A stretch of DNA of 47,255 nt. Origin: a virus (lineage: Duplodnaviria > Heunggongvirae > Uroviricota > Caudoviricetes). The stretch lies in the IMG/VR virus record IMGVR_UViG_3300042890_003920. One strand, written 5' to 3'. Position 1 is the stretch's first letter; every line of letters starts with the position of its first letter. Shown piece after piece: positions 30,134 to 47,014 of this stretch. The position numbers and the translations under genes were made by a program. The notes under the pieces are model-generated. The model saw only the letters and a list, made by a program, of their open reading frames with translations. It was not told the DNA's origin and did not search any database.

Positions 30134-30164
30134 AAAAAAGCCCAGATCATTATAATCTGGGCTT
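30134..30164 (-). terminator. Attenuator terminator upstream of the hisS-like gene
   Basis: AAGCCCAGAT-TATAATG-ATCTGGGCTT followed by a T tract. Confidence 0.9.
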
Positions 30165-30312: not shown

Positions 30313-31113
30313 TTAGAGTAAACTAGTGGTTATTTCTAATATTTTTTGAGCGACTAAAATCGCATCTTCTTCATTTAAAACTCCTTCATTTGGTTGTCTA
30401 GCAACAACTACATAAATAATTCTACTTCTATCATCTATTCCACTTATTCTATGATCATCATCTTGGGAGCTTGTATCATATTCTTGTATTATTCCAGTAG
30501 AAGGTCCAGGAACTAAAATTAGTTGATTAATTGATGGATCACCTTCACCATCATCAGTATTAGTTTTGTAAAAAAGTGTCCAATCAGGAATAACAGATTC
30601 TACATAACCTGCACCAATACCATTACCATCAGATCCAACATTACCGCTTATATTAAACTCAGATACTGATATACCATCAGCCATCATTATAAATAACCCA
30701 GGATACATATTAGTAAAATATTTGGATCCACTACCAAAATAAGAATCTCCTGATTCTATTTTTCCATCCATTGGTGGATTATTATATTCTTCATCATCAT
30801 TATCAGTTTCTGCTTGTGTGTGGGTGTATAGAATACTTGCAATTTCAAGTGATTCTTCACCTTCAATTTGTCCTTCTTTTATATTATCCCAATTTGCAGT
30901 TAAATTAGTATTCATAAAGTTTGCACCATCATACATATCATCACCACCATCACTTATTCCAGTTAATATAGTACTACTTATTTTATCATCCCAAAAGTTG
31001 TATATGTTTGGAACCAAAGCAGTAACTTCACTATATCTTAAATTCATACTATTTAGAGCGGTTTCTATCCAACCACCTCCTTTAAAACTTGTTCCTATTA
31101 TTGATTGTATCAT
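30313..31113 (-). CDS. Acidic adhesin/fibre-associated protein with MIQSIIGTSF N-terminus
   Basis: Shared N-terminal peptide; domain similar to an internal part of 36530..40870. Confidence 0.75.
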   Translation of the reverse strand: MIQSIIGTSFKGGGWIETALNSMNLRYSEVTALVPNIYNFWDDKISSTILTGISDGGDDMYDGANFMNTNLTANWDNIKEGQIEGEESLEIASILYTHTQAETDNDDEEYNNPPMDGKIESGDSYFGSGSKYFTNMYPGLFIMMADGISVSEFNISGNVGSDGNGIGAGYVESVIPDWTLFYKTNTDDGEGDPSINQLILVPGPSTGIIQEYDTSSQDDDHRISGIDDRSRIIYVVVARQPNEGVLNEEDAILVAQKILEITTSLL

Positions 31114-31123
31114 CTATTTTTAT

Positions 31124-32173
31124 TTATTTTATACTAGGATCACTTAAATCAATTGCCCAGTCATAACTACCGGGAAAATTCAAATAGGTAGAAACTCCAT
31201 CAAAGTATATACTACCACTACCATCTGAGAATGGTGATTGAGAACTCCAAGTTCCCCCTATTACAGATGCAACATGATTGCCTGTACTATCAATAAAAGT
31301 AGTATTTGATGATGTTACTGATAATAGTAATTTTGTTTCTGTATAATCTACTGGATTTAAAGGTGTTGTTGATGGTGTAAAATTACCATTATATTTTACA
31401 ATACCTTTCAAAAAATGAAAGTTAGTTAAATAACCATAAAATTTTTGACCTGAACCGCCACCAATTTGTAAATCACTTGTATTATCTAGTATTAGTCTAT
31501 TACTAGAATTATAGAAAAGTCTTGTACCATCTTTATATAGTTCTAATGTATTACTATTTCTAACTATTGCAAAGTGTACCCATGTATTATATAAATCTGA
31601 TATATTCTGAAATGCGTAATCAGAACCAAAACCACCACCAGTCCAAACAATAAGTCTATTACCTTGTACCTCTTCACTAAAACCAATAGATTCTCCTGGA
31701 TTATTACCAACATCAAATAGTCTATCAACATTTTCTCCTATACTACCTGTCATTTTTTGCCACCACTCTATTGTAAAGTTATTAGTAAGTGTAGTAACCC
31801 ATACATCTGATAATAGATTTAAGAAACCACCATATAATGAATATCCTATATAAATATTAAAGGATATCTCACCAGTATTAGGTGTTAAAGTAAATTGACC
31901 TCCTAATGTACCACTTCCATCATTATATAATTGTAGTGTATCATTATCCATATTTTCAACAAATTGATATGCTCTGCTATTTGAAGGTGATGTACCATCA
32001 ATCCACCAGTAAAGAAAAGTTCCCTCACTAACACCAGTTATACCACTTATAGTAAATGTTATTGTAGTTCCCTCTAGTGGATTATAATTATTAGCCACAA
32101 ATGTTGGTGTACTTGGAGGTGTACCTCCACCTCCTCCACCTGTAAAACTTGTTCCTATTATTGATTGTATCAT
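31124..32173 (-). CDS. LamG/concanavalin-like domain protein with MIQSIIGTSF N-terminus
   Basis: FTIEWW, WVHFAIVRN....LYKDG, LQIGG, FYGYLTNF. Confidence 0.8.
   Translation of the reverse strand: MIQSIIGTSFTGGGGGGTPPSTPTFVANNYNPLEGTTITFTISGITGVSEGTFLYWWIDGTSPSNSRAYQFVENMDNDTLQLYNDGSGTLGGQFTLTPNTGEISFNIYIGYSLYGGFLNLLSDVWVTTLTNNFTIEWWQKMTGSIGENVDRLFDVGNNPGESIGFSEEVQGNRLIVWTGGGFGSDYAFQNISDLYNTWVHFAIVRNSNTLELYKDGTRLFYNSSNRLILDNTSDLQIGGGSGQKFYGYLTNFHFLKGIVKYNGNFTPSTTPLNPVDYTETKLLLSVTSSNTTFIDSTGNHVASVIGGTWSSQSPFSDGSGSIYFDGVSTYLNFPGSYDWAIDLSDPSIK
31815..32173 (-). repeat. Copy A of a ~350-bp N-terminal module shared with 36160-36511
   Basis: Near-identical NYNP.EGTTITFTISGITGVSEGT.LYWWIDGTS...FNIYIGYSLYGGFLNL at protein and DNA level. 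Confidence 0.85.
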
Positions 32174-32191
32174 ATATTTTTTTTATTTTTT

Positions 32192-35100
32192 TTATACAGT
32201 AACAGTCCATCCTTTAGAAATTAGTATAGTCTGTAAGTTTGTTCCTGATACGGAATTTATATTACCAGTAAATTGTACATTACCACGTCCAGGAATAACA
32301 CTCATTGCATTAGCCCATGGTTCAGATGCTGTATAGCCTGCTGTTGTCATTTGGCTACTATTAAACCATAGAGTAGTTATTGAACTTGGTAATGGATTCG
32401 TAGGATTAAATGATACAATTTGAGTTTGACTTAAATATAAAGTTAACAATCCACTTGGTAATGCCAAAGTTGGATTAAATGATGTTATAGGATTTTGTGA
32501 TACATTTAAAATTTTTAATGTACTTGGCAATGCCAACGTTGGATTAAATGATGATATACCTGTCTGTTGTAACCCTAATTCATTTAATAAACTTGGTAAA
32601 GGATTTACTGGATTAAATGTTCCAATAGTTGGATTAAAATTTAAATTTAAATATCTCAATGAACTTGGCCATACATGATTATTGATTGCACTAGTTAAAG
32701 AGTTTGATGATAAAAATAAATTCTGTAATGTATTAGGTAATTTTGATACATCAATTGATGTTATAAAATTATTACTTGCATAAAAAGAGATCAATGAACT
32801 TGGTAATGAGAATGTTGGATTAAGTGATGTTAGCTGACATTGTTCTAAATATAGTGTATGTATTCCATTTGGTAAAGGAACACTTGGATTGAAATTACCA
32901 CCTAATGGATTTGTAGTTATGTTTAAAAATGTCAATCCAGTTGGTAATTTAGTATAATTCATATTAGCTCCTGTAATACCATTACCAGTTATACTTAAAG
33001 AAGACATTGAGTTAGGTAATGGGTTTGTAGGATTAAATGATAATGTATTATTATTTTTTGCGCTTAGCTGTGTTAAATTAGGAGGCCAATTGATACTATT
33101 AAATGTTGATCCTAATTGATTAGAATCTACAGTAAGCACTTGTAAATTATTAAATATAGAAGTGGAAGAGAGTGTAACAATTGATGGAATTTGATTACTT
33201 ATTAAATTAAGAGATGTTTTTATTGGTATATTTCCAAGTGCATTTATCTGTGTAATTTGTAATGCTCTTAAATTATAAGTACTTGACGTGGAAGTAGCAT
33301 ATAGATTACATTGTATTCTTTTTTGTACACCTGATACTGTAGTTATTGAAAATCCTGTAATAACCAAATTTGTTAAATAATTATAATTATTAGAAGGATC
33401 ACGTCCAGTTTCTAAGAACGTTCTAAACGATGCTTCATCTGTTACAGCTGGTGTTGTCAAAGACCAATTAGCTGTTACGTCAAATGGTAGTAGATTAGGA
33501 TCTCCTTCAACTGTCCATCCTTTACTAACTAATATTGATTCAAGATTCGTGCTTATTACACCATCTACATTATCATTAAAATCAATTGTACCTCTTCCAG
33601 GAATCACAGACATTGAACTAGCCCATGACTCTGATGCAGTGTAACCTGCTGTTGTCATTTGATTACCATTTAAATACAAATATTGTAATGAATTAGGTAA
33701 TGCTATACTTGGATCAAATGTAACAATGTCATTACCGTATAAATACAAACGTTGTAATCCACTAGGTAATGCTATACTTGGATCAAATGTTACAATTTGA
33801 TTACCGTCTAAACGTAAATCTTGTAATAAATTAGGTAATGCTTGAGTTGGATCAAATGTCACAATGTAATTACCACCTAAATATAACTGTTGTAATCCAG
33901 TAGGTAATACAGTTGGATCAAATGTAACTATTTGATTATTAACTAAAATCAATGATTGTAAGCCATATAATGGTAATGTTGGATTAAATGTCACTATTTG
34001 ATTATTTGATAACACTAACACTTGTAATGAATTAGGTAATGCTATACTTGGATCAAATGTAACTATTTGATTATTGTCTAAAAATAAATACCATAATGAA
34101 TTAGGTAATGTTATAGTTGGATCAAATGTTACTATTTGATTATTGTTTAGACGTAACTGTTGTAAACCGATAATATTTCCGAAAGACACTATATCTGAAA
34201 TTTGAATATTATTTAGATATAAGATTGTTCCAGTTGCAGAAAGATTACAAATCAATCTACCATTAACAAGTGAAAAGTCAGTAATGACTACATCAGTTAA
34301 ACTGTTTGTGCTTCCACCTCCATCTTCTCCACTTTCTAAAAATGTTATAAAAGATGCTTCATCAACAACTTCTGGTGTTGTCAACCCCCAATTAGCGGTT
34401 ACGTCAAATGGTAGTTGAGCAGGATCCCCTTGAACTGTCCATCCTTTACTAACTAATATCGATTCGAGATTCGTGCTTATTACACCATCTACATTATTAT
34501 TAAATTGTACAGTACCACGTCCTGGTATAACACTCATAGAATTAGCCCAAGATTCAGAAGCAGTGTAACCTGCTGTTGTCATTTGATTATTATTTAAATT
34601 TAAATTAACTAATGAATCTGGAAGCGGAATGTTAGGATTAAATGTAACTATTTGATTATTATTTAAAATTAAATTAACTAATGAATCTGGGAGCGGAATG
34701 TTAGGATTAAATGTAACTATTTGATTATTGTTTATATAGAAAGTTTGTAATCCACTAGGTAAAGGTATTGTTGGATCAAATGTAACTATTTGATTATTGT
34801 CTAAAGATAAATTTTGTAATCCAGTAGGTAATGCTATAGTTGGATCAAATGTAACTATTTGATTACTGTTTAAATATAAATTTTGTAATCCACTTGGCCA
34901 TGTTACATTATCAAATGATGTAATACTATTATTACTTACATCAATGCTAGTTACACCAATTGGCCAAGATGTATTATCAACAGATAGAATATTATTACTA
35001 TACAAATATAAAGTACCATTCATTTGTAAGTTTCCAAACGATGTAGCATCTGTCACACCCATTAATGCAAATCCTAAATCATTTCCTCCAGTAGAGGAAA

Positions 35101-36127
35101 GATTACATCTTAATCTATTTCCTTCAAGTAAGAAATCAGTTACTACAACACCTGTTTGGCTATTTGTGTTACCATCACCATCTTCTCCACTCTCTAAAAA
35201 TGTTATAAAAGATGCTTCATTTGTTACAGGTGGTGTTGTCAAGCTCCAGTTAGCGGTTACGTCAAATGGTAGTTGAGCAGGATCCCCTTCAACTGTCCAT
35301 CCTTTACTAACTAATATCGATTCAAGATTCGTGTCTATTACACCATTTATATTATTATTAAAATCAATTGTGCCTCTGTTAGGTATAACACTCATTGCAT
35401 TAGCCCATGTTTCAGAAGCAGTGTAACCTGCTGTTGTCATTTGATTATTGTCTAGATACAATTCTTGTAATGAATTAGGTAATGCTATACTTGGGTCAAA
35501 TGTAACAATGTCATTATTGTTTAAATATAACTGTTGTAATCCACTAGGTAATGCTATAGTTGGGTCAAATGTCACTATTTGATTACCAAATAAAAGTAAA
35601 CCTTGTAATGAATTAGGTAATGCTATACTTGGGTCAAATGTAACTATTTGATTATTACCTAAATATAAATTTTGTAAGCTACTTGGTAATGCTATACTTG
35701 GATCAAATGTAACTATTTGATTACCAGTTAAGTCTAAATTTATTAAAGAACTAGGTAATGCAATAGTTGGATCAAATGTAACTATTTGATTACTGTTTAA
35801 ATATAAAGTTTGTAATGAATTAGGTAATGCAATAGTTGTGTCAAATGTAACTATTTGATTATCTAATAAACGTAACTGTTGTAGACCTATAATATTACCA
35901 AAAGACACTATATCTGAAATTTGAATATTATTTAGATATAAGATTGTTCCAGTAGCGGAAAGATTACAAATCAGTCTACCATTAACAAGTGAGAAGTTTG
36001 TAATAACTACATCTGTTAAACTACTTGGGCTACCATCACCATCACCACCACTTTCTAAAAATGTTCTAAAAGATTCTTCGTCAACAACAGGTGGTGTTGT
36101 CAAACTCCAATTTGCAGTTACATCAAA
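32192..36127 (-). repeat. Nested repeats: 66-bp LRR units within four modules (861, 858, 924 and ~1293 bp)
   Basis: Module starts at 36127, 35266, 34408, 33484; recurring plus-strand GGATCAAATGTAACTATTTGATT. Confidence 0.85.
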
Positions 36128-36511
36128 AGTAATATTTTCAATTACAACTACATCAGATGGTAGATTTAAGAAACCACCATATAAACTATATCCTATATAA
36201 ATATTAAAATCTATATCTCCTTGATTAGGTGTTAGAGTAAATGTACCACTTAATGTACCGTCTTTTTCAAGTGATAGTTGTAGTGTATCATTATCCTTAT
36301 TCTCAACAAATTGATCAGCTCTACTAAATTGACCTGATGTTCCATCTATCCACCAGTAAAGTGTGGTTCCCTCACTAACACCAGTTATACCACTTATGGT
36401 AAATGTTATTGTAGTTCCCTCTATTGGGTTATAATTACTGGCTACAAATGTTACAGGAGGTGGATTATAACCACCTCCTGTAAAACTTGTTCCTATTATA
36501 GATTGTATCAT
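32192..36511 (-). CDS. 1439-aa leucine-rich-repeat protein, four capped LRR modules
   Basis: 22-aa repeat LPNSLQxLxLxxNQIVTFDPxIA; modules open with FDVTANW and close with SKGWTV. Confidence 0.9.
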   Translation of the reverse strand: MIQSIIGTSFTGGGYNPPPVTFVASNYNPIEGTTITFTISGITGVSEGTTLYWWIDGTSGQFSRADQFVENKDNDTLQLSLEKDGTLSGTFTLTPNQGDIDFNIYIGYSLYGGFLNLPSDVVVIENITFDVTANWSLTTPPVVDEESFRTFLESGGDGDGSPSSLTDVVITNFSLVNGRLICNLSATGTILYLNNIQISDIVSFGNIIGLQQLRLLDNQIVTFDTTIALPNSLQTLYLNSNQIVTFDPTIALPSSLINLDLTGNQIVTFDPSIALPSSLQNLYLGNNQIVTFDPSIALPNSLQGLLLFGNQIVTFDPTIALPSGLQQLYLNNNDIVTFDPSIALPNSLQELYLDNNQMTTAGYTASETWANAMSVIPNRGTIDFNNNINGVIDTNLESILVSKGWTVEGDPAQLPFDVTANWSLTTPPVTNEASFITFLESGEDGDGNTNSQTGVVVTDFLLEGNRLRCNLSSTGGNDLGFALMGVTDATSFGNLQMNGTLYLYSNNILSVDNTSWPIGVTSIDVSNNSITSFDNVTWPSGLQNLYLNSNQIVTFDPTIALPTGLQNLSLDNNQIVTFDPTIPLPSGLQTFYINNNQIVTFNPNIPLPDSLVNLILNNNQIVTFNPNIPLPDSLVNLNLNNNQMTTAGYTASESWANSMSVIPGRGTVQFNNNVDGVISTNLESILVSKGWTVQGDPAQLPFDVTANWGLTTPEVVDEASFITFLESGEDGGGSTNSLTDVVITDFSLVNGRLICNLSATGTILYLNNIQISDIVSFGNIIGLQQLRLNNNQIVTFDPTITLPNSLWYLFLDNNQIVTFDPSIALPNSLQVLVLSNNQIVTFNPTLPLYGLQSLILVNNQIVTFDPTVLPTGLQQLYLGGNYIVTFDPTQALPNLLQDLRLDGNQIVTFDPSIALPSGLQRLYLYGNDIVTFDPSIALPNSLQYLYLNGNQMTTAGYTASESWASSMSVIPGRGTIDFNDNVDGVISTNLESILVSKGWTVEGDPNLLPFDVTANWSLTTPAVTDEASFRTFLETGRDPSNNYNYLTNLVITGFSITTVSGVQKRIQCNLYATSTSSTYNLRALQITQINALGNIPIKTSLNLISNQIPSIVTLSSTSIFNNLQVLTVDSNQLGSTFNSINWPPNLTQLSAKNNNTLSFNPTNPLPNSMSSLSITGNGITGANMNYTKLPTGLTFLNITTNPLGGNFNPSVPLPNGIHTLYLEQCQLTSLNPTFSLPSSLISFYASNNFITSIDVSKLPNTLQNLFLSSNSLTSAINNHVWPSSLRYLNLNFNPTIGTFNPVNPLPSLLNELGLQQTGISSFNPTLALPSTLKILNVSQNPITSFNPTLALPSGLLTLYLSQTQIVSFNPTNPLPSSITTLWFNSSQMTTAGYTASEPWANAMSVIPGRGNVQFTGNINSVSGTNLQTILISKGWTVTV

Positions 36512-36529
36512 ACTATACTTTATTTTTAG

Positions 36530-39500
36530 TTAGCACCAGTTATCTTCTAATCCTGCACCACTTACCATCCATTTATCTATACCAATTTTTAATAAAGTAG
36601 CCATAGAATTACTTGGAATATAGAAGTTATTATTATTACCATCCAATCCGGCTCCCCATAATTTAGTAATACCAGAATCATCCAAATCAAATCGAGTACT
36701 ACTATCACCACTTACAACAGTAATTGCTGTTCCAATAGGGAAAGGCACATTTTCATTTGTAGGAATATAAACTCTATAAGTACCATCTGTATCTCTATAA
36801 ATATGTTTTCCAATATCACTTAGTTGTAAGTAATAGTCTTCATTGTGAGGTCTGTAGTTTTGAGGTATTATACCTGGACTTGATGTTTGTTTTGTTCCGT
36901 CACCAAATATTATACCACTTTCTTCATTTATTTTATCAATGTTATTATCTATATCATAAGTATTAGTATATATATATCTATCTCTAGTATATGTTATTGA
37001 GTGTGTTGCAGTTTGAGGTGTTATTGATTCATACTCACTAGATGTTACTGATCGTATTCTATATTCTCCTTTTACATAACTTGTTATTCCACTATATTCA
37101 CTATCTTCATCTTGTTCTAATGCTAAAGTTCCATCTGTTGGTAGATTTGCAATAAATGCATTATAGTAATCATCTGCCATTACATAAGTATAACCTGCAA
37201 CAGCAATTATTTCATTTTTAATAGAAATATTACTTAGGTTGAAATCTTCTCTACCTCCAATAGTGTTATTCCAAATAACCACACCATCACTATTAATTTT
37301 AAATAATCTTATTGTGTTAGGATAATAATCCTCAAAGTTATTATAAAAATTATTATCATCATACTTTACTGCTACATAAATACCAGTACTATCTGTTGCT
37401 ACTGCAGAATCACCACCATTACTATCAGTTCTTTTTTGCCATATTAAATCACCATTTAATGCTAATTTAGAAATAATAATATCATCACTATCATCACTAT
37501 AGTGAGTTGTTATTACACTATTAGTTCCAAATATTGCAACAGATTCTCCATAACAATTTTCATCTATTTCATTTAAAACTTTTGTCCATTGATGAACACC
37601 ATTCTGATTAAACTTACTGATAATTGCTTTTTCAATATCATTGTCACTGTAATCTGTACCAACACAATAAATATTATTATTTTCATCTGTTATAACTGAT
37701 TCAAATCTTTCATTTGATTCATCACCGATAAGTGTTCTCTCCCAGTTTTCTGTGTAAATATATGCTTCTCCATTTCCAGGAAGAGTTTTATAAATAGACC
37801 AAGTTCCTGATGCACTAAAATTAACATTTGTATTTATTGTAAGATATAAACTTGCAGTTGAACCCGTTCCAGATATAGATATACCCTCAATAATTCCATC
37901 AGTTACACTAGTAACTGTTATTATACAATCATTTGAACTAGTTCCACCAAATACACTACCAGGTATAGTAATAATATCATTTACAACATAGTTAGCTTGT
38001 TGCCCAGAATAATCATCCCAATAGTACTCTCCATTAAATGGATCCATTTCTATATCAAAGTTTGCACCAGAACCTTCTACTGTTGATCCAGTTACTCCGG
38101 CAAAACTTTGAGTTCCTGATGGTGATCCACCTATTATTGAGTTACCATAAATCTCTGCACTTACTATACCGCCGTCCTCTACATCTGTTTGTAGAATTGT
38201 AGCATCATTAGCTGGTGTAGCACCACCTAAACTTGTACCTGGTACAACTATTGGTTTAAGAATATTAATATTATATCCTGTACCTGGGGTATCTACACTA
38301 AGAATTGTATATTCACCAGTAACATTATCAGATTGTATTGTAAATGCTGCACCAACTCCACCTGGTGTTAGTGTTCCTGTTACTTCTTCAAAATAATTTA
38401 TCTCCTCTAGATTTTCATCTCCTATAATTCCTGTTCCTGCAATAGACCAACCTGATGTACCATCTGGTATATTATTATCAATACTACTTGGTGATATAAC
38501 TAAAGTACTAAATGTACTACCTAATAAAACTGAAGAAGTTGCGATTGTCCATTCTAAATAAGCAGTAGTTTTTTCACCAACTATAATTAGTTCATTATCA
38601 GAATTGAAAGTCATATCTCTTAAATAAATATCACCTTGTTCTTCTAAAACATTTAGATCTTTTAATCTATGTGAGATCTTAACATCACCATCCACTGGAT
38701 CTATTCTTACAATTAAAGCTTCTGTGTAATTTGGATTGATTTCACACAAAACTACTAAATCTCCATTTACTGGATCTATTTTTACTGAAGTAGCTTCAAT
38801 GCTATCTCCATTATAATCATCATAAATTTCTCTTGACCAAAGTTTATCTCCTGATTTATTAAATTTTACTACAATTGCATTATTATCATCATCTTCATAA
38901 CCTACTGCATAAGTATTTCCATAATCATCTATAACTGTTGAATTAAAGACAATATCATCATCATTATTATATAATGGACCTAAAACTGACATCCATCCTA
39001 ATGTTTCTGATTCTGGTAAAATTAAATCTTTATTAGATAGTTCTAATTTCTCATCACCAAAAGATAAAGTATTGTTATCTGCAATTAAAACATTAGTTAC
39101 TTTTTTTGAACTTGTAGAATCATCATCTGAACCATGATCTCCAGTATAGTAGATCTCATTAATATCTGTATTGATAGCAATCATTGCAAAAATACTTTCA
39201 TCATATAATGTAACATAGCTACTACCTGTACCAAATGTATTATTTTCTACTACTTCTCCACCACCATAATTAAAACCATAAGCTTTAAATACTTGTTCGG
39301 ATCTATCATTCTGATAGTAGTCAGAAACACTATATGTTCCAACTCCACCATTTAAAGTGCCAGTCAATATTCTATAATTTTCAAGATTATGTCTGATAGA
39401 TTGACCAACTGATAGTGTTCCTGATATTATTTCAGTTACTGTTAGAATATTATTCTCATCTGGAGAAGGTCCAATATCTTCTATTGACCCAACAAACTCA

Positions 39501-46132: not shown

Positions 46133-47014
46133 TTAGTTTATTGTCAATCTTTTTGTTGATGTTTTACCATCTTGTGTAATTTTTACAATATACATACCTG
46201 TTACTAAACTACTTACATTTAATTGACTTTGTATATTTTCTACTAAAACTTTTTTACCAACCATATCATAAATCTCTACATTTTTTGTAGAATTTATATC
46301 AGTTGTAATATTTAAAATGTTTTTTGTTGGGTTTGGATAAACTTGTAATCCAGAAATTTGATTTTGATTAGTAGATAGAACTAAGGCTCCATTTGATACT
46401 GTAAAATTATCGATTCTCCAAGCACCTGCTGCAGAATAGTTTGCCGCTGGTGTTGCTGCATAACCAACTGCTGAGTAATCTGATCCACTAGGATTAAAAA
46501 TTGATACTATTCTAAATGCAAATCCAGGTTGATTACTTGCATTAGATGGCATTATAAGTGTAACCATTGGTGTTGATGTAAACGAATTTGTTAATAATCC
46601 ACCATTGTTTCCGATTATAGTCCACGTATTACCACCGTTAATACTATATTCGTATTGTTGAAATCTTGATGAAGTATTTGAACCTCTTGGATCAAAGGTT
46701 ACGTTAATTGCATCTGTAAATCCAACAGTACTAACGTTAAATTGAAATCCTGCAGTACCTGATCCAGTTAATGTTAGTGGAAATGTTTTAATACTATATC
46801 CAAGATTAGTAGTTGCAGTACCATTACCTAATGGCATAGAACCAGCTGTATTAAGATTATCAACAACACCACCAATTGTTGTAAATGTTCCGCTACCAGT
46901 TGTTGGTATCATAGCAGCTGCGGGAGCTGTGTTGTCAAAGTTCCATTGTGCAATATTTTGTCCAAAAGAAATTGTTGTCATAAGTAAGACAACCATTGTT
47001 AAAAGTTTTTTCAT
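46133..47014 (-). CDS. T9SS type A sorting-domain protein, 293 aa
   Basis: Signal SFG|Q; CTD LQVYPNPTKNIL...IYDMVGKKV...LVTGMYIVKI...TKRLTIN. Confidence 0.9.
   Translation of the reverse strand: MKKLLTMVVLLMTTISFGQNIAQWNFDNTAPAAAMIPTTGSGTFTTIGGVVDNLNTAGSMPLGNGTATTNLGYSIKTFPLTLTGSGTAGFQFNVSTVGFTDAINVTFDPRGSNTSSRFQQYEYSINGGNTWTIIGNNGGLLTNSFTSTPMVTLIMPSNASNQPGFAFRIVSIFNPSGSDYSAVGYAATPAANYSAAGAWRIDNFTVSNGALVLSTNQNQISGLQVYPNPTKNILNITTDINSTKNVEIYDMVGKKVLVENIQSQLNVSSLVTGMYIVKITQDGKTSTKRLTIN

What the first reader, a model, noticed from the sequence alone, without database searches (positions are those of the whole stretch)
30313..36700. Plug-in adhesin system: three different proteins with an identical MIQSIIGTSF(T/K)GGG N-peptide downstream of a giant fibre
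The operon runs 1446-aa fibre, LRR protein, LamG protein, acidic-domain protein. The last three start with the same 10-aa peptide plus a Gly linker; two also share a ~105-aa module at DNA level (about 31815-32173 versus 36160-36511). The fibre ends in a compact ~100-aa domain (LQLSDIGK...FPIGT...ATLLK..DKW). Inference: the peptide is a docking strand inserted into the fibre's terminal domain, so that alternative receptor-binding tips (LRR, lectin, other) are loaded post-translationally and reshuffled by recombination. This is a modular host-range device.
Basis: partly seen in the sequence, partly recalled or inferred. Interest (0 to 1): 0.75.

Follow-up and report, generated by a model that had tools for sequence, protein, structure and literature searches.

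The report
Plug-in adhesins on phage fibre tip
A giant freshwater phage encodes a long fibre followed by three unrelated binding proteins that all begin with the same ten-residue peptide, and comparison with about 40 other phages suggests the peptide is a plug that mounts swappable adhesins on the fibre's end domain, a new form of a known phage host-recognition strategy.

Summary
Three consecutive minus-strand genes (LRR 1439 aa, LamG 349 aa, acidic 266 aa) follow a 1446-aa fibre gene. Each starts with MIQSIIGTSF(T/K)GGG, encoded by 38 nt with at most 1 mismatch.

The window is part of an uncultured Bacteroidota megaphage. The fibre's last ~108 residues form a beta-sandwich knob found in more than 4,000 protein clusters, nearly always at the C-terminus.

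In 42 non-redundant phage loci, the knob subtype predicts the N-terminal peptide of the next gene:
- SGAGL tail with QSIIGTS-like peptide: 17 of 17.
- Two other subtypes with their own peptides: 13 of 13 and 3 of 3.
- Two relatives with an altered tail have no tagged gene.

The tagged bodies differ (LRR, LamG, PA14, gp38-like), and the acidic body carries other N-terminal adaptors in other phages. Related megaphages have near-identical flanks but different cassettes.

This points to a plug-and-socket, two-component fibre comparable to T2 gp37-gp38 or the Klebsiella KP32 docking peptide. Physical binding is not shown, and the one complex prediction gave no verdict. The knob fold is XD1/TNF-like, not the known XD2/XD3 docking domain.

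Earlier scan notes on other DNA (e1-1840697, e1-244044) describe similar shared tags. I rate it a new variant of a known kind.

The parts
40935..40963 (-). Terminator-like hairpin between purA and the fibre gene; upstream boundary of the operon
   Evidence: 13-bp stem followed by a T run; sequence read
36530..40870 (-). Fibre gene (1446 aa). It is 59-73% identical along its whole length to the orthologues in two related IMG/VR contigs
   Evidence: Long homologues elsewhere carry Pfam Mtd_N at the N-terminus and SBBP repeats
36545..36871 (-). C-terminal 'socket' domain of the fibre (residues about 1334-1442), a 9-strand beta-sandwich knob
   Evidence: AF2 pLDDT above 90. 4248 representative clusters at E<=1e-3. 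The domain ends within 10 residues of the C-terminus in 145 of the best 150 hits. Fold matches: Pa223 capsid-spike knob Z 12.4, KP1 baseplate protein Z 11.5, CBA120 TSP4 residues 79-185 Z 9.4. This is the only region shared with T7-like fibres whose next gene carries the peptide
32192..36511 (-). Tagged protein 1 (1439 aa): plug, Gly linker, Ig-like N-module, then four LRR-plus-cap units
   Evidence: LRR_4 E 6e-51; repeat families with 858-924-nt spacing
36470..36511 (-). Plug peptide MIQSIIGTSF plus TGGG linker of the LRR gene
36137..36448 (-). Shared N-module (about 105 aa, Ig-like beta-sandwich) in the LRR gene
   Evidence: D10; ESM-Atlas structural neighbours are Reeler/PKD/DUF11 sandwiches, TM 0.55-0.65
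31124..32173 (-). Tagged protein 2 (349 aa): plug, Gly6 linker, N-module, LamG lectin-type domain
   Evidence: Laminin_G_3 E 1.5e-11, residues 128-254. The orthologue in L010/L040 is 75-76% identical over the LamG part but lacks the N-module
32132..32173 (-). Plug peptide plus linker of the LamG gene
31796..32101 (-). Shared N-module in the LamG gene
30313..31113 (-). Tagged protein 3 (266 aa): plug, GGG, then an acidic body of unknown fold family
   Evidence: AF2 pLDDT 90.6 with residues 1-9 disordered. More than 100 homologous clusters whose bodies carry other N-terminal adaptors. No clear fold match
31072..31113 (-). Plug peptide MIQSIIGTSF plus KGGG linker of the acidic gene
30138..30164 (-). 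Terminator-like hairpin downstream of the operon, in the leader of the mini-HisRS gene; downstream boundary

Best explanation
This is a two-component (plug-and-socket) virion fibre. The 1446-aa protein forms a conserved shaft that ends in a ~108-residue beta-sandwich knob, the socket. The three downstream genes encode separately translated adhesin-type proteins.

Each downstream protein has a free, disordered N-terminal decapeptide (core QSIIG[TS]S) and a flexible Gly-rich linker. This is the plug that attaches them non-covalently to the knob. The fibre tip is therefore equipped after translation with an LRR, a LamG or an acidic-domain head.

Because the plug is the only element needed for mounting, whole adhesin genes or domains can be gained, lost or swapped behind the fibre gene without changing the shaft.

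Shown here:
- the identical peptides;
- the widespread knob domain;
- the strict co-occurrence and class-wise co-variation of knob subtype and next-gene N-peptide;
- protein-level selection on the peptide;
- the adhesin-like bodies;
- cassette turnover between close relatives.

Inferred:
- that the peptide physically binds the knob;
- the binding mode (for example beta-strand addition);
- the stoichiometry (for example up to three heads on a trimeric knob);
- that the products are in the virion and set host range.
For: 1. The three genes start with the same 38 nt (at most 1 mismatch), with 0 matches expected by chance.

2. In 42 non-redundant loci carrying the knob, its C-terminal tail type predicts the N-terminus of the next gene:
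- W-M-x-SGAGL with x(0-4)-QSIIGTS-like: 17 of 17.
- WM[IV]Q[TN]-stop with M[PA]Q[FY][NT]ITATS: 13 of 13.
- WxVSGTGAT-stop with MGGIxQTLRGS: 3 of 3.
Further plug-like peptides followed by Ser/Gly linkers occur in L008, L035, the cultured Limnohabitans phage YIMV22061 and PhiJL001 gp87/gp88.

3. The T7-like fibres of L013-L019 share only residues 1335-1441 with the window's fibre, at 55-58% identity, yet their next gene keeps QSIIG[TS]S.

4. Distant phages encode the peptide with different codons, so selection acts on the peptide and not on a DNA or RNA motif.

5. Start codons often overlap the fibre's stop codon (offset 0-3), which suggests coupled translation.

6. The tagged bodies are unrelated adhesin-type domains: LRR and LamG in the window; two LamG domains, PA14/GLEYA, and Pfam GP38 adhesin elsewhere.

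7. The acidic body occurs in more than 100 clusters behind other N-terminal adaptors plus Gly/Ala linkers, or with none. This is the usual anchor-plus-specificity modularity of receptor-binding proteins. In its AF2 model the plug, residues 1-9, is disordered and outside the fold.

8. Megaphage relatives have purA 91-95% and HisRS 95-98% identical but carry different cassettes: a 370/382-aa protein plus a LamG without the N-module; the N-module alone; or none. The two relatives with no tagged gene have an altered knob tail, SSPQL or SSNDL.

9. In the 180-kb and 73-kb related contigs the peptide start occurs only at this locus.

10. The knob fold matches distal or trimeric phage modules: the Pa223 spike knob and the XD1 domains of TSP4/gp9. 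Sequence profiles hit PHROGs annotated as minor tail or tail fibre proteins.
Against: - No direct or predicted evidence of binding was obtained.
- The knob's fold corresponds to XD1, which the CBA120 authors regard as a spacer, not to the XD2/XD3 docking jellyrolls. In Pa223 the equivalent knob is simply the distal end of a spike. The knob could therefore itself be a receptor-binding tip.
- The peptide and the knob are encoded only 0-100 nt apart, so part of their co-occurrence could reflect physical linkage and shared ancestry rather than interaction. The loci are not phylogenetically independent.
- Some knob-bearing fibres are followed by enzymes with no plug-like peptide (L006, L021).
- The fibre lies between purA and a mini-HisRS gene, not in a recognisable structural module, and there are no virion proteome data for this phage.
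Confidence: 0.62

Rival explanations
1. The peptide is a virion-attachment tag, but it docks somewhere other than the fibre's C-terminal knob, for example another part of the fibre, a baseplate or adaptor protein, or the capsid. Under this reading the association with the knob reflects conserved gene order.
For: - Homologues of the acidic body sit right after the major capsid protein gene gp23 in a T4-like contig, with a different N-terminal adaptor. Such bodies can therefore be mounted at other virion sites.
- The best structural match of the knob is on a capsid spike.
- XD1-type domains are regarded as spacers.
Against: - The knob is the only part of the fibre shared between the megaphage and the T7-like phages that keep the same peptide.
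- Three knob subtypes each have their own peptide class with no exceptions.
- Relatives with an altered knob tail lack tagged genes.
Confidence: 0.15
2. The downstream proteins are fibre assembly factors or transient caps, like T4 gp38, Tfa proteins or the Alteromonas phage chaperone caps. They would bind the fibre end during folding and not serve as permanent adhesins.
For: - Chaperone genes typically lie immediately downstream of fibre genes.
- The gp38 family includes both chaperones and adhesins (PMC12032242).
- Chaperone 'caps' have been proposed for Alteromonas phages (PMC10579305).
- The small 67-72-aa partners of knob class B and the 125-127-aa module-only proteins could be such factors.
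Against: - The bodies in the window are a 1439-aa LRR array, a LamG lectin-type domain and a large folded acidic domain. None hits a tail-fibre-assembly family.
- Three different chaperones for one fibre would be odd.
- Two relatives have a complete fibre gene with no tagged gene behind it.
Confidence: 0.1
3. The shared 5' end has no binding role. It could be a recombination seam or gene-conversion tract, a translation-initiation element, or a sorting signal (export, or T4-like capsid targeting).
For: - Within the megaphage lineage all nine copies are identical even at synonymous sites.
- Cassettes are clearly shuffled.
- Earlier notes report capsid-targeting-like leaders on other genes of this phage (e1-5400279).
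Against: - Distant phages conserve the amino acids with different codons, so the protein sequence is what is selected.
- There are no inverted repeats in the locus.
- The peptide lacks the (L/I)-x-E cleavage motif of T4-type targeting sequences, any basic n-region, a hydrophobic core of signal-peptide length, and a lipobox Cys (read directly from the sequence).
- The peptide occurs only behind the fibre gene in the related contigs.
Confidence: 0.08

Closest known systems
Klebsiella podophages KP32/K11/KP34: RBP1 branching domain plus RBP2 N-terminal 'conserved (docking) peptide' (PMC6872550; PMC13352976)
   Same: A secondary receptor-binding protein has no anchor domain of its own. It carries only a short conserved N-terminal peptide that mounts it on a domain of the primary RBP. 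The peptide can carry unrelated specificity domains, and the genes are adjacent.
   Different: In the Klebsiella phages the socket is a T4 gp10-like branching domain near the N-terminus of a tailspike, and the peptide is about 29 residues. Here the candidate socket is an XD1/TNF-like knob at the extreme C-terminus of a long fibre. The peptide is about 10 residues plus a Gly linker, and up to three tagged proteins follow one fibre. There is no sequence similarity, and binding is untested here.
T2/T6/S16-type gp37-gp38: a separate adhesin mounted on the distal tip of the long tail fibre (PMC12032242; PDB 6F45)
   Same: The adhesin gene lies directly downstream of the distal fibre gene. The adhesin's N-terminal part attaches to the fibre's C-terminal tip, and the adhesin sets receptor specificity. 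One knob-bearing T7-like phage (Limnohabitans phage YIMV22061) has a plug-tagged partner that reaches the Pfam GP38 threshold (25.2 versus 25 bits).
   Different: gp38 uses a folded N-terminal attachment domain and a polyglycine sandwich. The window's proteins have a bare peptide and LRR, LamG or acidic bodies with no GP38 hit. The knob shows no significant similarity to the gp37 tip (6f45_D, Z 2.8).
Branched tailspike complexes of CBA120 (TSP1-4) and G7C (gp66/gp63.1), and T4 gp10 with gp11/gp12 (PMC8825819)
   Same: Several receptor-binding proteins are assembled on one scaffold protein through small beta-sandwich modules. The window's knob superposes on TSP4 residues 79-185 (Z 9.4, 25% identity).
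   Different: That TSP4 segment is XD1, not the XD2/XD3 modules shown to bind partners. The partners there dock through head domains or XD2, not through a short peptide.
Pseudomonas phage Pa223 capsid spike gp52, C-terminal knob (PDB 9NY6; bioRxiv 10.1101/2025.06.11.659172)
   Same: This is the best structural match of the fibre's end domain (Z 12.4, rmsd 2.0 A over 96 residues). It is a distal trimeric knob on a fibre-like protein.
   Different: It sits on a capsid spike with no known partner protein, and sequence identity is 8%.

Membership tests
Branched RBP system with docking peptide (KP32/K11/KP34 type) | The secondary RBP starts with a short conserved N-terminal peptide instead of an anchor domain | tested here: met
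   Three genes share MIQSIIGTSF(T/K)GGG at the true N-terminus. The peptide is conserved in 17 of 17 class-A loci.
Branched RBP system with docking peptide (KP32/K11/KP34 type) | The primary RBP carries a T4 gp10-like (XD2/XD3) branching domain after an N-terminal anchor | tested here: not met
   The candidate socket is at the extreme C-terminus. Its fold aligns to TSP4 residues 79-185, which is XD1 and not XD2/XD3. No Pfam family was found in the fibre.
Branched RBP system with docking peptide (KP32/K11/KP34 type) | The peptide and the branching domain bind each other, and the peptide is needed for virion incorporation | not testable with these tools
   This needs pull-down or ITC, virion mass spectrometry or a deletion phage. 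Only comparative-genomic association is available.
T2/S16-type gp38 fibre-tip adhesin | The adhesin gene lies immediately downstream of the distal fibre gene | tested here: met
   Gene order and the 10-18-nt gaps; overlapping stop and start codons in many relatives.
T2/S16-type gp38 fibre-tip adhesin | gp38 architecture: attachment domain, beta-helix and polyglycine sandwich with glycine-rich motifs (Pfam PF05268) | tested here: not met
   None of the window's three proteins hits GP38. Only the partner in Limnohabitans phage YIMV22061 does.
Tail fibre assembly chaperones (Tfa / T4 gp38 / caps) | A small protein of a recognised tail-fibre-assembly family | tested here: not met
   Pfam and PHROG scans of the three proteins gave only LRR and LamG families, PHROGs of unknown function and one baseplate wedge subunit PHROG (LamG protein). 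No tail-fibre-assembly or chaperone family was hit. Their sizes are 266-1439 aa.
T4-type capsid-targeting sequence | An N-terminal leader of about 10 residues ending in a prohead-protease site (L/I)-x-E | tested here: not met
   The sequence MIQSIIGTSF(T/K)GGG has no Glu and no such site.
XD1 / gp9-type beta-sandwich and TNF-like distal knobs of phage fibres | A sandwich of about 100 residues that superposes on T4 gp9, TSP4 XD1 or the Pa223 knob | tested here: met
   Z 12.4 (9ny6_C), 11.5 (9f4a_Le) and 9.4 (7rej_A residues 79-185), with rmsd 2.0-2.7 A over 95-96 residues. Foldseek also lists T4 gp9 1qex.

The most novel reading that the evidence does not exclude
A minimal, general plug-and-socket system has gone unrecognised. 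A decapeptide plus a Gly/Ser linker at the N-terminus of an adhesin would dock onto a ~108-residue C-terminal knob present in thousands of phage fibre proteins (podo-, sipho- and megaphages). Knob and plug classes co-vary and would act as separate 'connector standards'. In megaphages one fibre would be loaded with several different adhesins at once.
Probability: 0.4. Interest if true: 0.75.

Novelty: new variant of a known kind. Interest (0 to 1): 0.6.

Why it matters
Host recognition is the main determinant of which bacteria a phage can infect. How uncultured phages assemble their receptor-binding organs is largely unknown.

If the plug-and-socket reading holds, a single recognisable sequence signature would identify the true adhesin genes in thousands of metagenomic phages. 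The signature is a C-terminal knob followed by a next-gene N-peptide.

It would also explain how giant phages diversify their tips without touching a 1,400-residue shaft. And it would add a very small natural connector to the known anchor, branching-domain and docking-peptide repertoire.

The principle itself is already established for Klebsiella, Ackermannviridae and T-even phages, so this extends that principle and does not introduce a new one.

Tried and rejected
- Complex prediction. One job used three copies of the knob (alignment A3, residues 36-150) plus the first 40 residues of the acidic protein (alignment A5). It returned 'no answer' (score 0.09, mark 0.32). This is neither support nor evidence against binding. 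The unusual 3:1 set-up and the very short partner may have contributed.
- Pfam and PDB searches. Pfam on the fibre, its knob and the acidic protein found no family. PDB sequence searches with the fibre, the acidic protein and the knob profile found nothing significant.
- Known phage genomes. A megablast of the locus against 50,697 phage genomes found no match.
- Fold of the acidic body. There is no clear match. PDB Foldseek E-values are all above 1e-3, with weak resemblance to beta-sandwich domains of GH92/GH95/GH65 enzymes. AFDB gave two unnamed or fibrinogen-domain metazoan entries at TM 0.55. Its function remains unknown.
- Late promoter. I checked whether the phage's proposed late-promoter motif precedes the fibre gene. 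Only a near-match (AAATATATAC) lies about 30 nt upstream, and the exact motif is not enriched in the window. I make no claim.
- DNA-level element (shufflon or recombination site) as the reason for conservation. I rejected this because distant phages use different codons and there are no inverted repeats.
- Split-intein or trans-splicing idea. I rejected this from the sequence and the fold: the knob is a sandwich, not a HINT fold, and the peptide has no terminal His-Asn.
- Wider locus search. A first attempt with the 59-sequence alignment failed because no stretch was conserved enough. A 15-sequence alignment worked.


Full report
**Context.** The window has 29% G+C. No whole genome is held for it. 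Earlier notes of this scan place it in an uncultured freshwater megaphage of Bacteroidota of about 400 kb. I found the same purA-fibre-...-mini-HisRS neighbourhood on IMG/VR viral contigs of 180 kb and 73 kb, which agrees with a viral origin.

**The observation.** Four minus-strand ORFs run head to tail:
- fibre, 40870..36530 (1446 aa);
- LRR protein, 36511..32192 (1439 aa);
- LamG protein, 32173..31124 (349 aa);
- acidic protein, 31113..30313 (266 aa).

Pfam confirms LRR_4/LRR_8 and Laminin_G_3. The fibre and the acidic protein have no family.

The 38 nt encoding the start of the shared peptide occur three times in the window, each with one mismatch and each exactly at a start codon. No match appeared in 100 shuffles. 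The LRR and LamG genes additionally share a module of about 105 residues. Its DNA is 82% identical (D10; alignment). The ESM-Atlas model places it among Ig-like sandwiches.

Inter-gene gaps are 18, 18 and 10 nt. Strong terminator-like hairpins lie only before the fibre gene (40963-40935) and after the acidic gene (30164-30138). The four genes are therefore probably one transcript.

**The fibre's end domain.** The last ~108 residues (fibre residues about 1334-1442) fold with pLDDT above 90 into a nine-strand sandwich. An exhaustive HMMER search found 4248 representative clusters at E<=1e-3. In 145 of the best 150 hits the domain ends within 10 residues of the C-terminus.

A few proteins carry tandem arrays of the domain, with up to 15-21 copies. 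The domain is absent from Pfam. It hits PHROGs annotated as minor tail protein, tail fibre and virion structural protein. It also occurs in 'minor tail proteins' of about 80 Gordonia phages, in PhiJL001 gp87 and in a Limnohabitans T7-like phage.

The structural matches are:
- the trimeric C-terminal knob of the Pa223 capsid spike (Z 12.4);
- a Klebsiella KP1 baseplate protein (Z 11.5);
- CBA120 TSP4 residues 79-185 (Z 9.4, 25% identity);
- T4 gp9.

According to the TSP4 paper, that segment is XD1. This is the module shared with gp9 whose role is unclear. It is not one of the XD2/XD3 jellyrolls that bind partner spikes (PMC8825819). The Pa223 authors describe their knob as a TNF-like distal domain of a homotrimer. 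The fold therefore says 'trimeric phage fibre knob' but does not prove a docking function.

**Comparative evidence for a cognate pair.** A degenerate-pattern scan and protein-guided scans of IMG/VR and JGI metagenomes, plus look-ups of long homologues and cultured phages, gave 42 non-redundant loci with the knob.

The knob's C-terminal tail type predicts the N-terminus of the next gene without exception:
- tail W-M-x-SGAGL goes with x(0-4)-QSIIGTS-like peptides (17 of 17);
- tail WM[IV]Q[TN]-stop goes with small proteins starting M[PA]Q[FY][NT]ITATS (13 of 13);
- tail WxVSGTGAT-stop goes with MGGIxQTLRGS (3 of 3).

Several unclassified knobs are also followed by a short hydrophobic peptide plus a Ser/Gly run. 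These are L008, L035, Limnohabitans phage YIMV22061 and PhiJL001 gp88.

Class A includes T7-like contigs. Their 423-809-aa fibres share nothing with the window's fibre except residues 1335-1441, at 55-58% identity. Their next genes still begin with AQSIIG[TS]S, often overlapping the fibre's stop codon. The amino acids are conserved with different codons (ATT/ATC/ATA, TCT/TCA/TCC/AGT), so selection is on the peptide.

Two megaphage relatives have a knob tail changed to SSPQL or SSNDL. In both, the mini-HisRS gene lies directly behind the fibre with no tagged gene. In the 180-kb and 73-kb contigs the peptide start occurs nowhere else.

**The tagged proteins are adhesin-like and modular.** The bodies behind the plug are:
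- an LRR array, LamG and the acidic domain in the window;
- two LamG domains, PA14/GLEYA lectin-type domains, or a Pfam GP38 tail-fibre adhesin in other phages.

The acidic body has more than 100 homologous clusters. In these it follows quite different N-terminal modules, each ending in a Gly/Ala/Ser-rich linker, or no module at all. One homologue lies just after the major capsid protein gene of a T4-like contig. Its AF2 model (pLDDT 90.6) leaves residues 1-9 disordered and outside the fold. This is the pattern expected of a specificity domain that is fitted with whichever anchor suits the virion.

**Cassette turnover.** Between the window and its relatives, purA is 91-95% identical, the mini-HisRS 95-98% and the fibre 59-73%. 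The genes between the fibre and HisRS differ:
- window: LRR, LamG with N-module, acidic;
- L010/L040: a 370/382-aa protein, two untagged genes, and a LamG (75-76% identical to the window's) fused directly to the plug without the N-module;
- L011/L041: plug plus N-module only (125-127 aa);
- L042/L043: nothing.

All nine megaphage copies of the plug are identical at the DNA level. The plug-coding stretch could therefore also serve as a recombination seam, but that is inference.

**Mechanism.** The most economical reading is a plug-and-socket fibre. The disordered decapeptide, tethered by a flexible Gly linker, attaches each adhesin to the knob at the fibre's distal end. This resembles the way gp38 sits on the gp37 tip in T2/S16-type phages (PMC12032242). 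It also resembles the way the conserved peptide of KP32 RBP2 docks on the branching domain of RBP1, which was shown experimentally (PMC13352976).

If the knob is trimeric, as in Pa223 and TSP4, up to three heads could be carried per fibre, either identical or mixed. That is speculation.

I rate the attachment-to-knob model at about 0.6. The rivals, all discussed with their evidence in the Rival explanations section, are:
- attachment elsewhere on the virion;
- a chaperone or cap role;
- a non-binding role of the shared 5' end.

The single complex-prediction job gave no verdict and is recorded only under Tried and rejected.

**Novelty.** The principle of a short N-terminal docking peptide on secondary receptor-binding proteins, and of separate adhesins on fibre tips, is published. 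What I did not find in the literature searches is this particular pair:
- an XD1/TNF-like knob at the extreme C-terminus as the candidate socket;
- a plug of only about 10 residues;
- co-varying plug and knob classes across podo-, sipho- and megaphages;
- three different tagged adhesins behind one fibre.

Earlier notes of this scan describe similar shared tags behind giant fibres in another freshwater jumbo phage and in a giant E. coli phage (e1-1840697 and e1-244044). The phenomenon therefore recurs. I classify it as a new variant of a known kind, with moderate to high interest.

Noticed in passing
window 46133-47014 (-), also 43115-45445 (-) and 45546-46058 (-): The phage encodes a 293-aa protein with a signal-peptide-like start and a type IX secretion C-terminal sorting domain (Por_Secre_tail, E 9e-16). 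It also encodes a 170-aa OprF-like beta-barrel and a 776-aa secreted-looking protein. T9SS cargo encoded by a phage would have to be exported by the host's machinery.
   Followed up: partly
P0128 (246 aa; sequence): This protein starts with a plug-like peptide plus Gly linker (MSFLSDFIGAGLGGG) and contains two copies of the knob domain. It could be both plug and socket, which would allow chain extension.
   Followed up: no
P0003 (3206 aa) and P0005 (2401 aa): These giant proteins carry 11-21 tandem copies of the knob domain. This contrasts with the usual single C-terminal copy.
   Followed up: no
L022-L032, L047-L057 (e.g. L022:1756-1974): Knob class B fibres (tail WM[IV]Q[TN]-stop) are always followed, 26-35 nt downstream, by a 67-72-aa protein starting M[PA]Q[FY][NT]ITATS. 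The protein has no family hit. It may be a minimal tip or cap protein.
   Followed up: partly
L062:6001-6912 and neighbours: A homologue of the window's acidic body, with a helical MSFINWG... adaptor, lies directly after the prohead protease, gp23 major capsid protein and DUF5856 genes of a T4-like contig. This hints that the same body can be a capsid-associated display domain.
   Followed up: partly
L010:7545-8494 (also L040:6581-7506): Two untagged genes (104 aa and 211-219 aa, no Pfam family) are inserted between the two plug-tagged genes of the related 180-kb and 54-kb contigs.
   Followed up: partly
L042:5339-5517 and L043:689-870: These megaphage relatives have a knob tail reading SSPQL or SSNDL instead of SGAGL, and no tagged gene between the fibre and the mini-HisRS gene. 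They form a natural loss variant that could help map the docking site.
   Followed up: partly
window 32192-36511 (-): The LRR protein consists of four units of about 290 aa. Each has a spacer, a 23-residue-period LRR solenoid and a conserved cap ending ...SKGWTV. DNA repeat spacings are 858-924 nt. Another note of this scan (e1-5400289) covers this protein.
   Followed up: no
PMC2784084, Table 2 (cyanophage P-SS2 ORF086): A 1846-aa protein weakly similar (E 1e-4) to PhiJL001 gp88 was detected in the P-SS2 virion proteome with 45 peptides. PhiJL001 gp88 is the plug-tagged partner of the knob-bearing gp87. This is weak indirect support that such partners are structural proteins.
   Followed up: no
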